Source of the DNA: Saccostrea cucullata
Taxonomy: Eukaryota
Length of the DNA stretch: 64,000 bases
Direction: 5' to 3'
NCBI RefSeq assembly: GCF_032062105.1
Contig: NW_026929710.1
Span: 1 to 64,000, forward strand
Shown: positions 26,692-63,823 of the stretch, piece by piece
How the letters are laid out: each line of letters starts with the position of its first letter
How positions within the stretch are numbered: position 1 is the first letter of the stretch
The notes under the pieces: model-generated
The model's database searches: none
The model's input: only the letters and a program-made list of their open reading frames with translations
What the model was told of the DNA's origin: nothing
Translations under genes and position numbers: made by a program

Positions 26692-29600
26692 ATGTCGGAA
26701 AGCGATTCAGACGAGGGGATCAAAAATTCCACCTGGGTCCCTTACAGAGACCGAGATGAGTGGAAAGACATCTCCCCAATCCCCCAGGACGACGGCCCCG
26801 GGCCCGTGGTGCAGATTGCGTACTCTGACGAATGTAAGTAAAGTGTTATTTTATCTGAAACATGGTCGCGGGTCGTCACCTGGGAATAGCGGCGTTTGTT
26901 GTGGTTGATGTACATGTATGGAATCCTCTTGGCTTACGTCCAGTGGCTAAGAATAGTTTAATAGGGATTGTTTTTGATTTACTTTAGACTTATCTAATGA
27001 AAAGTCAAATAAAAATTGAACATGATTTAATACTGGCTACTGCTGTAATATACCTTATTTATTTGCAGAAGGCAAAAAGGAAGGGGGAGGGGGGGGGGGG
27101 GCTATTGTTTCTACTCTACAAGCTAACCATTTCCATTTGTCAGTGTCCATAGCATATCCTTGGTTACTTTCCAAAGGGAAAATTGTGGACAATAAAAAAG
27201 CTTTTCAAATTAATATAAATATAATTTCAAGAAAAAAAAATCATCCTATTTTTACTATACTGGTGGTTTTATTCATGGCAGTTAGGTCAATGTACAGTGT
27301 TAATTTTAATTTGTTGTAGTTTATGAAACATGATTAAGTAATAAGTTGAATAGGAAAGGTTATAATCTTGATTTAGTAGCAATCCAAATCCCAATTATCA
27401 GCCAATACCTGGATACCTGACTTCATTTATTATGTATATTCTGGTAACGTATCTGTGATTAATTGAGGAGTACTCTGTGGTATTATTGGAAGGATGGTGA
27501 ACTTCTTCCTCTTGGTTTCAATTTCCATTTAGTTCAGTTCTCAGCTTATAATTGATTTAACATGTTAAATTGATCTTTAACAATGAAGTCATCAACTAAC
27601 ATGTTTTGAACCTTATGGTTAATTTTCCATAAGCTTGGTGAGATGAGAGTGTTTTTATTCTATGTGTTCTATATAAAAACAGTGGAGGCTTTATCAAAGT
27701 TAAACATACAGATCTGGTTGAACTTTCATCATTGCTTGTACAGTGTTCAAATTCTGCATTAGCTTAAATACTATGTAATATAAAATGCTATTTATTTTTT
27801 CCATGGGCGACTTTTTAGGTCACCTGAGTAAACTCAGGTGACCTATTGCTATCACTTTTCGTCCGTCGTCGTTCGTCGTCCGTCGTGCGTCGTGCGTTAA
27901 CATTTGAACATTTTCAGCTTCTTCTCTGAAACCACTGAACCAATTTCAACCAAATTTGACATATAGCATCTACGGGTGAAGGGGAACAAAAATTGTGAAT
28001 TTCATGGGCCCTGCCCCCCTGGGGCCTGGGGGGTGGGGCAAAAACCACTAAAATTAATGCAATCTTTAAAAATCTTCTTCTTTACTCCTGGACATCAAGC
28101 AGTTAAACTGTTTGCATGATTGTAATCAGCATTGAGTCCTCTACCAAAATTGTGAAATTCATGGCCCCGGGGTCAGGGGTTCTGTTGTTAGGGTGGGGCT
28201 AAATAAGTATATCGTGAAATTTCATGAATTCTTTGAAAATCTTCTTCTCTGCTCCTGGGTATTGAATTAACTAACTAAGTGCATAGTTATGATGAGCAAG
28301 AGTGCCTCTACCAAAATTGTGAATTTTATGGCCCCAGGGTCAGGGGTTCTGGTGTTAGGGTGGGGCTCTATAGATTATATAGTGAAAATACATGAATTCT
28401 TTGAAAATCTTCTTTTCTGCTCCTAGGTATCAAATAAACTAACTAAGTGCAAAGTTATGATGAGCAAGAGTGCCTCTACCAAAATTGTGAATTTTATGGC
28501 CCCAGGGTCAGGGGCTCTGGTGTAAGGGTGGGGCTCTATAGATTATATAGTGAAAATACATGAATTCTTTGAAAATCTTTTTCTCTGCTCCTGGGTATTA
28601 AATAAACTAACTAAGTGCATAGTTATGATGAGCAAGAGTGTCTCTACCAAAATTGTGAATTTTATGGCCCCAGGGTCAGGGGTTCTGGTGTGAGGGTGGG
28701 GCTCTATAGATTTTATAGTGAAAATACATGAATTCTTTGAAAATCTTCTTCTCTGCTCCTGGGTATTAAATAAACTAAATAAGTGCATAGCTATGATGAG
28801 CAAGAGTGCCTCTACCAAAATTGTGAATTTTATGGCCCCAGGGTCAGGGGTTCTGGTGTTAGGGGGGGGGGGGGGGGCTCTATAGATTATATAGTGAAAA
28901 TACATGAATTCTTTGAAAATATTCTTCTCTTCTCCTGGGTATTAAATAAACTAAATAAGTGCATAGTTATGATGAGCAAGAGTGCCTCTACCAAAAATTG
29001 TGAATTTTATGGCCCCAGGGTCAGGGGTTCTGGTGTTAGGGGGTGGGTTCTATAGATAATATAGTGAAAATACATGAATTCTTTGAAAATCTTTTTCTCT
29101 GCTCCTGGGTATTGAATTAACTAACTAAGTGCATAGCTATGATGAGCAAGAGTGCTTCTACCAAAATTGTGAATTCGATGTCCCCAGGGTCAGGGGTTCT
29201 GGTGTTAGGGTGGGGCTCTATAGATTATATAGTGAAAATACATGAATTCTTTGAAAATCTTCTTTTCTGTTCCTGGGTAATAAATAAACTAAATAAGTGC
29301 ATAGTTATGATGAGCAAGAGTGCCTCTACCAAAATTGTGAATTTTATGGCCCCATGGTCAGGGGTTCTGGTGTAAGGGGGGGGGGGGGGCTCTATAGATT
29401 ATATAGTGAAAATACATGAATTCTTTGAAAATCTTCTTCTCTGTTTTGGGGTATTAAATAACTAAATAAGTGCATAGTTATGATGAGCAAGAGTGCCTGA
29501 TTGTAATCAGCATTGAGTCCTCTACCAAAATTGTGAAATTCATGGCCCCGGGGTCAGGGGTTCTGTTGTTAGGGTGGGGCTAAATAAGTATATAGTGAAA

Positions 29601-32600
29601 TTTCATGAATTCTTTGAAAATCTTCTTCTCTGCTCCTGGGTATTGAATTAACTAACTAAGTGCATAGTTATGATGAGCAAGAGTGCCTCTACCAAAATTG
29701 TGAATTTTATGGCCCCAGGGTCAGGGGTTCTGGTGTTAGGGTGGGGCTCTGTTGATTATACAGTGAAAATACACTAAATCTTTGAAAGTTTTCTTCTCTG
29801 CTCCTAAGTATTAAGCAGATGAACTACCTATGTAGTTATGATGAGCAAGGGTCCTGATCTTCCAGAATTGTGAATTTCAAGGCCCCAGGGTCAGGGGTAC
29901 CATAAAGGAGGGGGGGGACTGTACTTATATACTGAAACTGGATGAATTGTTTGAAATCTGCTCTCTGGTATTTATCAAATATTTTTGAAAAGCAAGGGTG
30001 CCTTTTCAACAATTTTTGCAATGTGTGGATCTTGGCCTAAGGGTCAGGGGTTCATATGTGATTGGGGCATTACTGATCATGCTGAATATTACTGATTACT
30101 TGAAATGCATTTTTTGTTCCCCTACCCTGCCTATGGGTATTAAGTAAACAAACTAAGCAACTGCTAAGTGTGTTATGATGATCAATGGTGCCTATTTCAA
30201 AATTGTGAATGCCATAGCATCTGGATTAAAACATGAATCAAATTCAATCACTGGAAAGTTGTTGCATAATGCTCAGGTGACCTATAAGGCCCATGGGCCT
30301 CTTGTTGTGTATAGAGATGGGATTTGTGTAATGCAATCAATTCCAGATTTTTAAAGTCACAGTAATCAGCAGTCTCTGCAAACATTATTTTTTTCTGAAT
30401 GCACAAGATCAAACCAAACTTTGCAAGAGAAAAATCCTTACTAATGTAAGAAAGTGAAACACTTGAAAATGCAAAACCAAGAAGATCCTACGGTCCATGT
30501 AATTTCAATCACACTTGTTCATGTAGTTAACTTTGTGCAATATTTTTCATAAAACAAACGTTTTTAGGACTCCATATGGTTCAAGATAGTAAACTTAAAT
30601 TTGAACCTGGAGACATCAGTTGAAAAATTCCAGTTTGGTGTAAAAAATGATGTATCGGGCTCAGCACTGTACATGTGAGATCCAATGGTCAGGTGTTTTT
30701 TCTGGAAAACTGTTATTAACATTAAAATCCAATGTTTTCTTAGTAAGAAGGGAGCTTCAAGGGCATCAAAGTCACTTGGATTGTGGTAATGCAGTTAACA
30801 CTAAACAGAGTTTTTATTACTGATAACCATGTTAACTGTAAATAATTTCCTTTTTCAGTTCAAGATGTGTACGACTACTTCCGGGCCATCATTGCGAAGG
30901 AAGAAGTCAGTGATCGCGCACTGGAGTTGACGAAAGACGCAGCACGGCTGAATGCCGCTAATTATACTGTATGGTAAGTTAGACCATAGTAGCTACCACT
31001 CCAAGATTAAGTTTTCAATGCTGCTGACTAAATGGTAAATTTTGAATGCAGCCATAATGTAAAATATGATATGTTGTACTTGTAAGTGATGGAGATTTCC
31101 AGTTATACTGTCTGATCTGACATTGAAGAATGGTACTACTGTTTGGTAATGTTTAGTACAAAGTATGTTGTGTAGTTTTTGAATGCTGCTTATTCATACA
31201 ACATACTACTTGAAAAATACCACTTTTATGCTGCAAAAAAGAAATCTGAAAAAAGTTAATGCTGTCAAATACAGATATTCCCCACTAGTGATCGGTTCAT
31301 GATGATTGAAATCAAACATTTTCTTCTCCTTTACAAATGTTAAAAATGAAGTTTAAGAACTCTGTAGATATACTGGTATGTTGTAAACACAAGGGACTTA
31401 GGTTGTAGGACTGTTTTTCTTCAATTGGCAAGGGTTTTTTTTCTCTCGCAAGGGGAAATTTGTGATAAGAATGCAGGAATCTTGTATATTTATACACCTT
31501 TGATATTTTCTGTTTGTACGTCATTTAAAATGCCATTAGCATGTTAACTTAGTACACATGTCAGTATGGTATTCGGTGCCTAAAAATATTCGAAATACTT
31601 TTCCCCCTTACCATAAATATCACTGTTGGTGAAAAAAAGAATCAGTATGAAGGTAATAGATTTATATTACATGTATGTGACAACAGATCAGCAGACTTTT
31701 ATTGTACTTAACTCCTTTATGGAGAGGACTCCCATTTCCTGATGAAAGTCTTGAAATATTGCCAGGAACTGGAGAGAAAATTCAATACCTTTCTGAAAAT
31801 CAATTTTCTTCTTATGCTTCTCATAATTAAAGTGTCTTTGCTTGTGAAATTGCTCAAGTAAAGCTAAATCTCCCGTTTTTCTCCGTTAAATGATTTTTTG
31901 GGTGTATTGATGCTGTGTTGATGTAAGGTGCAATGTCCTTGTGACTCACTGTGAATTTACCAATAAATGGAAAGAAGAAATAAGTGGTCTTGCCAAAAAA
32001 GAGATTTAAAAATTTAATTTTTGAGCTGTTTACAATGTCAAAAGGTGACACGTTTTGGAATTAATGTGTGTGAAATCCTGGCACATGTCTGCAGTGTTTA
32101 TATTATTTTGTTAAAGGTCATTGTTTGATTTTGATTAAAAAAAAAAGCACCTCTATGTGAATAGCCAAGTTCTTTTTGTGTGTAGATTAAAGAAAAAACA
32201 TATTTCATGACGAGAAGAGATTAGCTTGGGTAGCTAGTAAGATATCAATGTATAAACTGAATCCTCAACCCAACCCTACATCTTTCAAGACTGGTTATAA
32301 GATTTTTTTTCTGAACTTTCAACTTCAGAAATCTGTTTATTTATTCATTCTTAGTTTCATACATTCTCTCAGTGACTTGCCTGTCTTGAAAAAATTCATA
32401 GACTATTGGACTTTTGGGAGAAGCACTGACTTTTACAGTTGACTGTTTACTTGAACATTTAAACCTGTATCATCTACAGAGGTACATAATTGATAATAGA
32501 TAAGAAAACCTTTCTAGTGGTCATAGGTATGGTGTTAGGGGCACTGACAGGTGAAGGCCAGGAGTTAATGGTAGTTGTTTTCTTCAAGGACACCTTATCT

Positions 32601-35600
32601 GTGCTTTGAAATAGCCCATGATTTTTGTTGAATTAAATGGTGAGCTAAATATTTATATTGTAAAAGAGCTTCCGTACACTGTCTTAGTGTTAGAATAATT
32701 TGTCAACTGCTAAAGTCAGCGCTCCTCGCAAAAGTCCATTAGTAATTTAAACGTACCATATCAGGGACATCACTTCAACACGACATTCATATTATTCCAG
32801 ATTTATTTGGATTTTTACCTGTACTTCTTTAGAATCCTATTCCTATATATATATAATATTGTATACTTGACATAAAAGGTCACAAAGGGGAGTCTTTGAA
32901 TCAGACTGTTATTATTTATCTAGCAGAGTCAGGACAATTAAAAAGTATGTCTCTCATGACCATGATTACATCCAAGTTGATATACACATTTTATATAATT
33001 TTTTGTAACATTGATTTTGATTACTGCACATACATATAAACAGTTGAAACTTGAGTTGTACATTTCATGTAATGTGTAATTTTGTCATGTTTTTATATTC
33101 CAAGGAAAACACATTGACAGTTTTGCTTTAACAAAGAAATTACTTTTCTAAAAGTGATGTACACATTGTTCATTGGAGGATACTGTATCTAAATTTACTT
33201 TAAAAAGTGGGCTTCATATTTTAGCGACTTTGGTACAGACGATATATACACTAATTCAAGAATTCCGCTAAGAAATCATGTATTTTATTAATCATGTTAA
33301 TATAATATTAACATGATTAAGAAAATATTTTGTGAAGTGTGTAGGGCTAATTTATGAATACCCCAACAATTTTATACGCAGTGATTGCAGTAAATATTGA
33401 AAACACCAATTTATGTACACACGTATAGTATAAAGTCATTATTTAGTGTTAAGAAATGATTAGAAACATTTAGAGCAACTGAATAGCTTAGTTTTGACAT
33501 GCAGTTTGAAATGCATCAAGGCAATCTATTTCAGTCCAAATACTTTTCAGACTATTTACAGAATTTTTTGATTGCTTACATCTTCAATATCTTCTACAGG
33601 CATTACAGGAGAATTCTCTTGAAAGAGCTGAAGAAAGACTTGAAAGAGGAATTAAAATACATCACAGATATGATTGTCTCCCACCCCAAAAACTACCAAG
33701 TCTGGTGAGTATCAACTATGAATTCTGGTTAAAGCTGCTCAGCTTTATTCCTTTAGGGGAAAAAATTACAGATGGATGGGAGGTTATGATATATTTTGCA
33801 GCCCTAATATGTAATAACCCTTTGGTAAGAGACAGATAAATCTCCTGGATTACAGTAAATTTTAGAAAACATTTCTCCTGGGTGAAAGAAAATAAACTTT
33901 TATCATATGTTGATGTTTATAATACAGTGAAATGTCTCATTGCTTTTGTTAGGCACCATCGTCGAGTGATTGTAGAATGGCTTCAGGACCCATCACAAGA
34001 ACTCGAGTTCACCGCCCAAATCCTGAAAAAGGATGCCAAGAATTACCATACCTGGCAACACAGGTGATTAATCGTGCCTTCTGATTGGTAGAATGTAGTT
34101 TTGACCCCTTGATCTCTATGCTAATGGTTTATGGTCCTCCTATGACCTTTAAATGTGAATAACCTATTTGACCTTTTTAACCTTTGACCTTACAGACAGT
34201 GGGTGTTACGTGAGTTTGCATTGTGGGACAGAGAGCTGGATTACGTGGACTCGCTCCTACAGGAGGATCTTAGAAACAACTCGGCCTGGAATCAACGATA
34301 CTTTGTCATCAACAACACGACCGGGTTTACTGAAGACGTGGTTAATAAGGAGGTCAGGTGAGCTTTCTAGGGAGGACTGTGTCAAGGTCACACTGACAAT
34401 AAAATAAATAGGACAGCCGCCAGCTTCTCTCTTAAAAACTGGACAGAATTCTACATCGTCCTTTGTCATGATTGTTGTATACATATAATTTTATTGGCAT
34501 GCCACTCAATTTAAAGAAAAGTACTTTGGAATATTTCCATAATTAGTGACAGGATAGAGGCATTCATGTATTGATCTGGATCCAAAATTGTGTATAAATT
34601 ACTGAAGCAGTTCTGCATATTTTTCCTGATGAAACAAAAGTTGCAACATATTCTCTGTTTTGTAGGTACACACAAGAGTTTATCAAGAAGGCCCCTAACA
34701 ATGAAAGTTCTTGGAACTATTTGAAAGGGTAAGACAGATGTCATTGAACATGTAAATATTTTGCTCAGCTATTGCTTTGTTACTTTAAAGCTTTAAATTC
34801 TGCTCAGTTTTATATCTATGTTATAAATAAACAGTGATTGGGAAGGGCTTGCGCCACGCGCCATAGTCGCATTGAAGTGAAAAATGGCGCATTAAATCAA
34901 TCAATCATGGCGCCTAGGTGCGCATTCAATTTTTAGCGATGTTATTTGGAAATATTTTGTGTACGACTTTCTTTCTTGTTTTACTTTCGTTTTAAATGCA
35001 GTCAATTTAAAACAACAAATCTTATTGGTTGAAACCTGTCAAAAAGTACTTCCGGTTAAACGAAGCACTTACATGAGGTACAATACTTCATTCATTTGTA
35101 TGGTAAGGCCGTTCCCTTTCCAAAACTGTCGTAATTTTAACACAAAATACGGGTCAGTTATATTCTAAGAAAGTTCCTTTAAATTTACTGCATTTCATAC
35201 GTTAAAAATCGGATTCGGTTAATTAAAAATGCGTTTTCTCTCGTATTTCATATTTGTTTGTCACTTTGTTATTTCTTAAAATGGCCCTTCAGATTATATT
35301 GATGGCCCATTCATTTTCGAAATGGCCCATCAAAAATGTTGACAGTTGTGCCATAGTCCCATTGACCATTTTGGCCTTCCCAATCACTGAATAAAAATGA
35401 AAGGGAGGATAGATCTTTGTACATTATATGAAAAAGTCCACTGTAAACTGAAAGTTTTCATTGTATTCCTTAAGGCTGTTGATGGAAGTTTAGAGATCTC
35501 CATACCTGATTATTTATCTGAGTTGTTTAATGTAGGGTTCTGATGGACTTTGAGCTGTATAAGTACCCCGGCCAACTGGAGTTCTGTCAGCAGCTCTGTG

Positions 35601-36278
35601 ATGACCGCTACAGATCTCCATACCTGATTATTTATCTGAGTTGTTTATTGTAGGGTACTGATGGACTTTGAGCTGATGACCGCTACAGATCTCCGTACCT
35701 GATTGCCTGTATGATTGACACATATGAAGAGATGCTGGAGCAGAACTGTGGAGAGCAGAGGGAGGTTCTGGAGAAAGCTGTGTCGGTATGTTAATCATCT
35801 ATTGGTGTATCAATGTAGTAATGTGTTTATGCTCTGCTGAAATGTAAGTGTGTGTATATCTGTGATGTATCTGTATCTACAATGTTTACCTTTTTACATT
35901 GACCGTTTCATTGTTGTCCTCTGAGTCTGTACATGATATTTTAAACCTTAGGGGTCATGTGCCACCCCTCCCCCCCCCCCATTCTCCCTAAATTTACAAG
36001 CTCACAATACTTTATAGCCCACAATTTTATCTCCACTTTGGGGAGAAATCTTCAACCCTTTTGCATGTTAATCTCAAAAAAGTAAACTTTGCTGTCCACA
36101 ATCTTTCAATTCTCTGTCAGACACAATTTTCTGAAGTGTTAAATTTTTCTCTTTCCAGCTGTGCCGGTCATTAGCGGAGGAGTACGACACTATTCGATCA
36201 CAATACTGGGACTACCTCTCCCGCGTGTTGTCCAATAAATACGGCAGTGAAGACGTCACCGCGCAAGAGGCGTCATGA
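26692..36278 (+). CDS. FNTA: Protein farnesyltransferase/geranylgeranyltransferase type-1 subunit alpha (8 exons; exon 7 disrupted as assembled)
   Basis: Exons 26692-26833, 30859-30973, 33600-33704, 33953-34063, 34196-34357, 34666-34728, 35536-35785 (anomalous) and 36159-36278, all GT-AG with matching phases. Diagnostic peptides: [98 protein letters not shown]. Confidence 0.95.
27812..30306 (+). mobile_element. Complete Helentron/HINE-type element with ~11 copies of a ~168-bp satellite, in FNTA intron 1
   Basis: 5' taggtcacctgag-taaa-ctcaggtgaccta hairpin, (CGT)-type microsatellite, monomers marked by ctctaccaaaattgtga, 3' subTIR ctcaggtgaccta and palindrome aggcccatgggcct. Confidence 0.9.
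34832..35389. mobile_element. MITE with CAGTG termini (hAT-like), in FNTA intron 6
   Basis: 15-bp TIR cagtgattgggaagg, flanked by a 6-bp direct repeat aataaa. Subterminal atggccc/atggcgc motifs. Confidence 0.8.
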
Positions 36279-38379: not shown

Positions 38380-39650
38380 GGCCCTAACTCTTGGAGCTTA
38401 ATGACCTAACAGGTGCCCTATAAACTATGGAGCCTAATGTCCTAACTATGGAGCTTAATGTCATAGCAGGTGCCCTATAAACTATGGAGCCTAATGTCCT
38501 AACTATAGAGTTTAATGTCCTAGCAGGTGCCCTAACTACATGTGTATGGAGTCTAATGTCCTAACAGGTGCCCTATAAACTATGGAGCCTAAGGTGCCCT
38601 ATTCAGGCTAATGCCCTAACTATGCAGCCTAATGCCCTAACTATGTAGATTAATGTCCTAACTATGCAGCCTAATGCCCTAACAGGTGCCCTAACTATGG
38701 AGCCTAATGCCCTTACAGGTTCTCTAATCATGCTGCCTAATGTCCTTACAGGTGCCCTAATCATGGAGCCTAATGTCCTTACAGGTGCCCTAATCATGGA
38801 GCCTAATACCATTAAAGGTGCCCTAATCTTGGAGCCTAATGCCCTAACAGGTGCCCTAACTATGGAGCCTAATGCCCTAACAGGTGCCCTAACTATGGAG
38901 CTTAATGCCCTAACAGGTGCCCTAACTATGGAGATTAATGTCCTAACTATGCAGCCTAATGCCCTAACAGGTACCCTAACTATGGAGATTAATGTCCTAA
39001 CTATGCAGCCTAATGCCCTAACAGGTGCCCTAATCATGGAGCCTAATGTCTTAATAGGTGCCCTATCTATGGAGCCTAATGCCCTTACAGGTGCCCTAAT
39101 CATGTAGCCAAATGCCCTAACAGGAGTCCTAATCATGGAGCCTAAGGTCTAACAGGTGCCCTAAGTATGCAGCCTAATGCCCTAACAGGTGCCCTAACTA
39201 TGCAACCTAATGCCCTTACAGGTGCCCTAACTATTCAGCTTAATGCCCTAACTATGGAGCATGAATGATGCCCTAACAGGTGCCCTAATCATGGAGCCTA
39301 ATGCCCTAACTATTGAGCTTAATGCCCTAATAGGTGCTCTAACTATGGAGCCTAATGCCCTAACAGGTGCCCTAATCATGCAGCCTAATGCCCTAACAGG
39401 TGCCCTAATCATGGAGCCAAATGTCCTTACAGGTGCCCTAATCATGGAGCCTAATCTCCTTACAGGTGCCCTAACTATGCAGCCTAATGCCCTAACAGGT
39501 GTCCTAATCATGGAGCTTAAGGTCTTAACAGGTGCCCTATCTATGGAGCCTAATGCCCTTACAAGTGCCCTAATCATGCAGCCTAATGCCCTTACAGGTG
39601 CCCTAATCTTGGAGCCTAATACCCTAACATGTTCCCTTACTATGCAGCCT
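38380..39650. repeat. 33-bp minisatellite (with 21-bp variants) rich in CCCTAA
   Basis: Unit atggagcctaatgccctaacaggtgccctaact, roughly 40 copies, degenerating leftwards to ~38270. Confidence 0.95.
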
Positions 39651-51534: not shown

Positions 51535-53019
51535 ATGGCTGCTAGTGCCTCAAAAAAATACCCACTGGGCTCTCCTCAAGAACACATTGTAATGTGTGAA
51601 TCTCACGATTCACCCATTGATATGATATGTGAGGACTGTGTTGAAATTATTTGTTCTGAGTGTGCCAAAAAAGATCATAACAATCATAATTGGAAAACTC
51701 TAACCACGGCAGCAACCCAAAGGAGGAGGGGTCTATTTAAATTTCTGAAGAAGATCAAGGAAGAGGATCTGCCTGGGATTGATGAGAAGAAACAGAAGAT
51801 ATCAAAACAGATCAAAGAAAATAAAGAACTGTGTGACTCTGAGATTAAAAAGCTACAGAAACATTGTGAAGATATTATAAACAGGCTGACAGAAATCAAA
51901 GAACACCGTGAAAAAATACTACGAGACAATTTGGTTAAAAAGAATGATCAACTGAACCATGTGAATTTTGAGTTAGAGAAGAAAAAGAAAGGAATTGTTG
52001 ACACAGTGGAATTCATGGAGGAGAACAACAGCACCATGTCAGATTACAGTTTGATTGACAACCACAGAGAACTAAATAGAATGCTGTCTGAATTGGAGGT
52101 TCATTTGACAAACTGTGAATATTCAGCGAGGTTCATTAGAGGTGAAATCAATGAAGACGTACTTAAATCTTTGGTTGGAAAAACTTTTGATTTGGATGAT
52201 ATTGGCTTAACTCAAATAAACTCATTTCAATATGGAGATAAACCAATATCTGTTTTGAAGGCTTTCAGTGAAGACCAATGCTACATCAAAGAATATCAAC
52301 CTAAATATACTGAAAAAGTCAACACACAAGGTACAAAAGAACATAAATTTAGTATTTTCCCTAATGACATGTGTGTGACTGATAATGGCGGTGTTTATTT
52401 CTCTAACTATATTGACAAGTCCGTCAGCCGTCTCTCACCATCAGGATCTGTATCTACAGTCATCAGTACAGATCCACTGGTACCAGCAGGAATCTGTCAG
52501 TCAGTGGACGGTGGACTACTGGTCACCTTGACAGACAAGAAATCAGATCGTTACAAATTAGAGTCACACAGCAGGCGTCTGGTGAGACACATCACAGTGA
52601 CAGGTGATGTCATCCATGAGTATGAGTACCAGGAGGACGGTCACACCAGACTGTTTACATGGCCAATCAGAGTCAAACAGAACAGTAACAGTGATATCTG
52701 TGTTGTAAACTGGACAAGTACCACTACAGGTGAACTAGTGATTATGTCTCCCTCTGGTCATATGAAGTCTGTCTACCGTGGACAGAATCTGACAAAGGAC
52801 TTCTGTCCAACTGATGTAGTGTGCGACTCCCTTTGTAACATCCTTATTACTGACATGAACAATAAACAAATCCATCTGCTGAGTCCTGATGGGAAGTTCC
52901 TGAAGTTCTTACTGACAGACAATGAAGTGAGCTGTCCAATCAGATTATCAGTGTACAAGTCCACACTGTGGGTGGGATATAGGGAAGGACTTGTCAAAGT
53001 GTTTCAATATAGAATGTAA
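51535..53019 (+). CDS. RING-less TRIM-like protein (B-box, coiled coil, NHL beta-propeller), 494 aa
   Basis: Intact ORF with a single coding exon. B-box CESH..CEDC..CSEC..H..H, NHL motifs PAGICQS and PTDVVCDSLCNILITD. Close paralog of 12587-14077. Confidence 0.92.
   Translation: MAASASKKYPLGSPQEHIVMCESHDSPIDMICEDCVEIICSECAKKDHNNHNWKTLTTAATQRRRGLFKFLKKIKEEDLPGIDEKKQKISKQIKENKELCDSEIKKLQKHCEDIINRLTEIKEHREKILRDNLVKKNDQLNHVNFELEKKKKGIVDTVEFMEENNSTMSDYSLIDNHRELNRMLSELEVHLTNCEYSARFIRGEINEDVLKSLVGKTFDLDDIGLTQINSFQYGDKPISVLKAFSEDQCYIKEYQPKYTEKVNTQGTKEHKFSIFPNDMCVTDNGGVYFSNYIDKSVSRLSPSGSVSTVISTDPLVPAGICQSVDGGLLVTLTDKKSDRYKLESHSRRLVRHITVTGDVIHEYEYQEDGHTRLFTWPIRVKQNSNSDICVVNWTSTTTGELVIMSPSGHMKSVYRGQNLTKDFCPTDVVCDSLCNILITDMNNKQIHLLSPDGKFLKFLLTDNEVSCPIRLSVYKSTLWVGYREGLVKVFQYRM

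Positions 53020-53775: not shown

Positions 53776-63823
<10,048 letters not shown>

What the first reader, a model, noticed from the sequence alone, without database searches (positions are those of the whole stretch)
35490..35785. FNTA exon 7 is split by a tandem duplication of its own acceptor, and neither copy reads through
Seen: the unit agatctccatacctgatt-atttatctgagttgttta(a/t)tgtag|GGT(T/A)CTGATGGACTTTGAGCTG is repeated. Acceptor 1 (35536) gives [31 protein letters not shown] and then runs into intron-derived sequence with an in-frame TAG at 35651. Acceptor 2 (35654) has a 43-nt deletion and stops at TGA 35700, although it carries the correct tail ([18 protein letters not shown]..). Established: FNTA is the shared alpha subunit of FTase and GGTase-I and is normally single-copy and essential. 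Possible explanations are a null haplotype, a collapsed repeat in the assembly, or rescue by cryptic splicing. Two weak-site options keep the frame: exon 6 joined to ctacag|ATCTCCG at ~35689, or a ~75-nt intron from CTCT|gtgatg to tttgag|CTGAT.
Basis: partly seen in the sequence, partly recalled or inferred. Interest (0 to 1): 0.7.

Follow-up and report, generated by a model that had tools for sequence, protein, structure and literature searches.

The report
Oyster FNTA mirage, live copy broken
In an oyster's only assembled copy of the FNTA gene, the splice acceptor and start of exon 7 sit in a tandem repeat that related oysters also carry, and the last copy, the one relatives use, lacks 43 bases, so this is likely one broken allele inside a known repeat type rather than a new splicing trick.

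Summary
In detail: acceptor 1 stops at TAG 35651, acceptor 2 at TGA 35700, and the assembly holds no second FNTA copy. The duplication is not the lesion, though. DNA of two related oysters carries the same 118-bp acceptor-plus-exon unit upstream of an intact last unit. RNA-type runs of relatives splice to one intact 175-nt exon. This is the known amphioxus 'mirage' repeat type. Copy 1 is a decayed decoy: its Q246 and C254 are the only 2 of 330 residues shared by 0 of 92 homologues. Copy 2 sits in the live position and lacks 43 nt, which removes most of a predicted helix (246-255) and shifts the frame. The proposed rescue splice sites are no stronger than background GT and AG sites. Best reading (0.55): a real heterozygous loss-of-function allele whose intact partner is not in the assembly. 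Rivals: an intact last unit dropped in assembly (0.30), or rescue by a new 75-nt intron (0.08). No reads close enough to be this animal's were found, so this stays open.

The parts
26692..26833 (+). FNTA exon 1 (from ATG)
30859..30973 (+). FNTA exon 2
33600..33704 (+). FNTA exon 3
33953..34063 (+). FNTA exon 4
34196..34357 (+). FNTA exon 5
34666..34728 (+). FNTA exon 6; its donor joins exon 7 in relatives' RNA
35494..35511 (+). Relic of an older upstream unit (exon-derived segment A, 18/18 identical to 35612-35629); holds a branch-point-like CTGAT 30 nt before acceptor 1. Relatives keep a longer relic here
   Evidence: (loose ends of X2 and X3)
35512..35629 (+). Unit 1 (118 nt): 24 nt of intron end with acceptor (exon starts 35536) plus 94 nt of exon 7; decayed decoy with L246Q and Y254C
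35630..35704 (+). Unit 2 (75 nt): acceptor (exon starts 35654) plus exon start, in the live position, lacking 43 nt between 35675 and 35676; frameshift stop TGA 35700
35705..35785 (+). Unique 3' part of exon 7 with its donor (TCG|gtatgt)
35598..35672 (+). Only canonical GT..AG 75-nt skip that restores length; weak sites, probably not a real intron; matches public model P0121
36159..36278 (+). FNTA exon 8, coding part to the stop

Best explanation
FNTA exon 7 sits at the end of an acceptor-spanning tandem repeat that related oysters also carry, and in this assembled sequence the last unit lacks 43 bases, which likely makes it a real loss-of-function allele carried beside an intact one that the assembly does not show. 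Shown: the repeat, the 43-nt gap, the stops, the units in relatives' DNA, the intact exon in relatives' RNA, and the decay of copy 1. Inferred: upstream units are normally bypassed because the exon is defined from its downstream donor. On this chromosome either acceptor gives a premature stop 132 or 83 nt before the last junction, a likely decay substrate, and any protein would lose two or more C-terminal helices. Also inferred: the gap arose by a microhomology deletion in the live unit, or by array contraction that put a gapped decoy in the live position, and the animal lives on its other allele.
For: All six relative runs laid (X1, X2, X3, X14, X16, X24) show the intact exon, as a 75-nt skip or as the clipped junction at 35628; none shows the 43-nt gap. 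Six of the 8 listed X3 pieces cross the exon-to-intron junction of the unit, 2 of them with 31 or more letters on both sides; one X2 contig runs 6 letters past it. Congener model P0123 reads into such a junction. Q246 and C254 are shared by 0 of 92 homologues. In a toy consensus the exact gap junction arose in 0 of 40 runs without a real deletion; the window form came back near-exact in 4 of 20 runs where it was a true haplotype and in 0 of 100 others. The other seven exons are intact, and three ORFs of 439-573 aa nearby are unbroken. The region is single in the assembly. Pacific oyster parents carry about 7.25 lethal alleles each (PMC5804265, passage).
Against: No run held more than 0.17 of the words, so neither the gap nor an intact second allele was seen in this animal's reads. 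Decoy units in X3 also carry indels (a 3-nt insertion, and a likely 8-nt loss read from a loose end), so a gapped unit looks like a decoy that should be followed by an intact unit. Base 35704 is T, as at decoy boundaries, where all six relative runs have C; this is a weak hint of a chimera, since the exon tail has other private bases too. A mirage was misassembled in the amphioxus draft (PMC3087553, legend). The toy test is MAFFT majority voting, not the real assembler, and 1 of its 100 other runs gave a partial likeness to the window form.
Confidence: 0.55

Rival explanations
1. The real chromosome is decoy, gapped decoy, intact last unit; the assembly or polishing dropped the intact 118-nt unit or merged two haplotypes with different unit counts. 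The gene is normal.
For: Relative X3 has several unit variants, some with indels, before an intact last unit. Mirage haplotypes differ in count (6 versus 3) and one was misassembled (PMC3087553). Only one haplotype is in the assembly here. Base 35704 is decoy-type. A null in a gene expected to be essential is rare a priori.
Against: The array spans only about 210 nt, which a long read crosses whole (that this is a long-read assembly is inferred from a contig of over 1 Mb). Toy consensus kept all three units in 20 of 20 homozygous runs and gave the near-exact window form in 0 of 40 mixed runs that held the gapped decoy plus an intact last unit.
Confidence: 0.3
2. The allele is real and rescued: the decoy is recruited as the first part of exon 7 and 35598-35672 is removed as a new 75-nt intron (protein with Q246 and S254), or exon 6 joins the acceptor at 35689 (26 residues shorter).
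For: Both options keep the frame. Public model P0121 is exactly the 75-nt form. Recruitment of a mirage unit is the intron-gain model of PMC3087553 Fig. 7 (legend). A CTGA-type branch motif lies 15-16 nt before each cryptic acceptor.
Against: The donor TCT|gtgatg matches the U1 consensus at 4 of 9 places against 6-8 for the seven real donors, and 68% of 592 GT sites in the gene score as high. The acceptor is GAG with 7 of 16 pyrimidines (72% of 497 AG sites as high), 19 nt behind a stronger one. The sister model P0124 has no GT-AG, GC-AG or AT-AC placement among 32, which points to intact transcripts aligned across a gap (inference, the annotation's evidence was not seen). The product would carry two residues absent from 92 homologues, or lose helix 246-255.
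Confidence: 0.08
3. The gap is a consensus or polishing error in a normal two-unit array, or a somatic contraction in part of the tissue.
For: Somatic instability is reported for the Adh3 mirage (PMC3087553, passage). Toy consensus often gave partial units when unit counts differed.
Against: The gap is clean, has microhomology, and its exact junction never arose in 40 toy runs without a real deletion.
Confidence: 0.07

Closest known systems
Amphioxus 'mirages' (Adh3, troponin C, globin BflGb6/BflGb9, PGBD5); PMC3087553 and PMC3902484, passages read
   Same: Tandem units made of an intron's 3' end and the next exon's 5' part, with spare AG acceptors; unit of 118 nt (theirs 10-160); regular splicing to the authentic copy in relatives; unit number varies.
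   Different: A bivalve gene expected to be essential; the array is shared across related species; in this sequence the authentic unit itself is broken, which those passages do not describe.
Human CBS c.844_845ins68; PMC7490669, passages read
   Same: Duplication of the intron end and exon start; the downstream acceptor is used and the upstream copy is spliced out.
   Different: There the downstream copy is good and bypasses a mutation upstream; here the downstream copy is the broken one and the upstream copy is decayed.
Human F7 IVS7 37-bp VNTR; PMC1557585, abstract read
   Same: Minisatellite across an exon-intron boundary with silent but functional pseudo-sites.
   Different: Donor side rather than acceptor side; the first unit is the live one.
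FNTA, shared alpha subunit of FTase and GGTase-I (Pfam PF01239; PDB 1jcq_A)
   Same: Five PPTA repeats in P0124; congener P0001 matches the 1jcq_A chain at E 3e-136.
   Different: The assembled sequence cannot encode residues 241-254 except from the decayed decoy.

Membership tests
Mirage repeat | Tandem unit spans an intron-exon boundary | tested here: met
   24 nt intron plus 94 nt exon per unit
Mirage repeat | Spare units keep splice signals | tested here: met
   Both units have TAG acceptors with a CTGAT motif at -30
Mirage repeat | Several diverged units | tested here: met
   Relic plus two units here; several variant units in X3; one decoy plus live unit in X2
Mirage repeat | Unit number varies between haplotypes of one species | not testable with these tools
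   No reads close enough to be this species were found; contigs of relatives give no copy number
Mirage repeat | mRNA uses the authentic unit | tested here: inconclusive
   Met in relatives X1, X14, X16, X24; not testable in this species; impossible in frame on the assembled sequence
FNTA | PPTA repeat array and full-length match to solved alpha subunits | tested here: met
   Five PF01239 stretches; PDB match of P0001
FNTA | Single copy in the genome | tested here: met
   One match in each
Heterozygous null allele | Gap present in about half of the animal's reads, intact allele in the rest | not testable with these tools
   Best share of words 0.17
Intron gain by mirage recruitment | Usable new donor and acceptor | tested here: not met
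   Sites score like background by simple consensus counts; no RNA test was possible

The most novel reading that the evidence does not exclude
The spare mirage unit has replaced the broken live exon: this lineage splices the decoy to the exon tail through a newborn 75-nt intron and lives on an FNTA with Q246 and S254, which would be intron gain by mirage recruitment caught in the act in an essential gene.
Probability: 0.08. Interest if true: 0.75.

Novelty: new member of a known kind. Interest (0 to 1): 0.27.

Why it matters
It adds a bivalve mirage shared across related species, and suggests a cost: an array of decayed spares next to an essential exon may generate null alleles by deletion or contraction, a concrete candidate for the oyster's high lethal load. 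It also flags public models P0121 and P0124 as probable chimeras of decoy and true tail across a doubtful 75-nt intron. If rescue were real, it would make the mirage model of intron gain directly testable.

Tried and rejected
A second FNTA copy, haplotig or retrocopy in the assembly: none in five searches; one search returned only a common repeat. Reads of this species: none above 0.17 share; 6 of the 24 listed runs were laid. Exon 7 loci of other oyster genera in metagenome contigs: 0 confirmed of 168 stretches and 0 pattern matches, so the age of the array beyond the close relatives is untested. Short Logan/ENA/JGI proteins with a decoy or rescue form: none among 7. A recent 75-nt insertion into a working copy 1: rejected, since copy 1 is decayed. 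Skipping exon 7: out of frame. A paper on C-terminal truncation of the alpha subunit abolishing activity is recalled only; searches did not find it. Two papers were not held. Earlier findings near this place or on FNTA: none.

Full report
Observation. FNTA has eight exons from 26692 to 36278. Before the unique tail of exon 7 lie an 18-nt relic (35494-35511), a 118-nt unit (35512-35629) and a 75-nt unit (35630-35704). The short unit equals the long one minus 43 nt, with three substitutions. Acceptor 35536 gives 271 aa, acceptor 35654 gives 248 aa, and skipping gives 237 aa, against 330 aa for a single 175-nt exon. The repeat is far above chance (36 nt exact against at most 12 in 100 shuffles). 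Five searches found no other FNTA copy, and a neighbouring RPB2 stretch is also single, so a second haplotype is not in the assembly here. The host is an oyster: the closest named hit is labelled with a genus beginning 'Sac' and the next oyster cluster is Magallana/Crassostrea.

The array is old. No run held more than 0.17 of the words, so the six runs laid are relatives. All six show an intact exon 7 and none shows the 43-nt gap. In DNA run X3, six of the 8 listed pieces cross the point where exon sequence returns to intron sequence, 2 of them with 31 or more letters on both sides (18 contigs were laid; 11 pieces were not shown). They differ from each other, and an intact last unit follows. 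In X2 one contig carries a degenerate relic and a unit and runs 6 letters past that junction; its end overlaps the start of the intact-unit contig by 30 letters in unit coordinates, which suggests they are adjacent (my arithmetic). A congener's public isoform P0123 reads through a decayed unit and shares LSEL with the junction's third frame. RNA-type runs X1, X14, X16 and X24 join exon 6 to one intact exon (X1 is RNA by its splice joints; X14 and X16 are labelled as guesses).

Copy 1 is a decoy. Among 92 homologues of 280-370 aa (all such among the proteins fetched, leaving out P0121 and P0124), only two of 330 positions are shared by none: Q246 and C254, both in copy 1. X1 differs from copy 1 at 7 of 64 bases but at 0 of 64 in exon 6 and 2 of 111 in the exon 7 tail; exon 8 is also diverged (14 of 255), so this contrast alone is modest. 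At 35530 copy 2 has the base of both DNA relatives, and at 35539 a base common in relatives. Both odd residues fall in the stretch that copy 2 lacks, which covers most of predicted helix 246-255 (AlphaFold model of P0001, mean pLDDT 91). So the duplication is tolerated, and the lesion is the gap in the live position.

Rescue is unlikely. The 75-nt skip has one canonical placement (35598-35672), which gives public model P0121. Its donor matches the U1 consensus at 4 of 9 places, against 6-8 for the seven real donors, and its acceptor is a pyrimidine-poor GAG; both score like background sites in the gene. These are simple counts, not a trained model. P0124 is identical to copy 1 joined to the tail and has no canonical placement among 32. 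P0121 and P0124 match the window's conceptual protein at 329 and 330 of 330 residues, so they are models of this same sequence and not independent. I infer that intact transcripts were aligned across a 75-nt gap; I did not see the annotation's evidence.

Real or artefact. A toy consensus (MAFFT majority of 24 reads at 8% error, 6 scenarios of 20 runs) never made the exact gap junction without a real deletion (0 of 40). It returned the window form near-exact only when that form was a true haplotype (4 of 20, against 0 of 100; one of the 100 was a partial likeness). With intact neighbouring exons and ORFs, this favours a real allele. Against it: decoys in X3 carry indels, base 35704 is decoy-type, and a mirage was misassembled in the amphioxus draft. 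I put the null allele at 0.55, a dropped unit at 0.30, rescue at 0.08 and consensus or somatic error at 0.07. That a truncated subunit is inactive is inferred: P0123, cut at a like place, keeps all five PPTA repeats, while the stops remove helices 282-300 and 302-320 and most or all of 261-276. The truncation experiments I recall were not found. That the subunit is shared by FTase and GGTase-I is in PMC13524398 (passages); essentiality rests on the title of the yeast RAM2 paper in its reference list and on recall.

Comparison. The class is the amphioxus mirage (PMC3087553 and PMC3902484, passages), a lead taken from earlier scan notes and then checked in those papers. CBS 844ins68 (PMC7490669, passages; PMC2630376, passages mostly from its references) and the F7 VNTR (PMC1557585, abstract) are human analogues. 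The load figure is from PMC5804265 (passages). I found no paper on this array: 'oyster' plus 'FNTA' gave one listing on mussel heat stress, the mirage search gave only the two amphioxus papers, and one search gave two human-genetics listings. Supplements were not read (only a legend of PMC3087553's Additional file 4), and subscription journals are largely not covered.

Verdict. A new member of a known repeat kind, with a probable null allele or an assembly slip at its live unit. Interest 0.27.

Noticed in passing
window 34832-35389: A 558-bp MITE-like element in intron 6 with perfect 15-bp terminal inverted repeats and a candidate 6-bp target duplication; high copy in the genome and absent at this site in X2 and X3.
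   Followed up: partly
window 35494-35511 and 35612-35629: The branch-point-like CTGAT 30 nt before each acceptor lies in exon-derived sequence, so the live acceptor may depend on former coding sequence of the preceding unit.
   Followed up: partly
window 12569-13888, 41188-42909, 51484-53019: Three long uninterrupted ORFs with a B-box zinc finger, one with NHL repeats; FNTA lies among them.
   Followed up: no
window about 55500-58400, minus strand: Exons of RNA polymerase II subunit RPB2 (Pfam domains 5 and 6).
   Followed up: no
window 28134-29898: A 168-bp satellite array of about ten units inside FNTA intron 1.
   Followed up: no
window about 23000-25400, minus strand: A GC-richer, pyrimidine-skewed stretch that looks by eye like a decayed retroelement; its 228-aa ORF had no Pfam match.
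   Followed up: no
window 38383-39650: A 21/33-bp minisatellite with open frames on both strands just downstream of FNTA.
   Followed up: no
P0122: A public oyster FNTA isoform skips exon 6 in frame (21 aa shorter).
   Followed up: no
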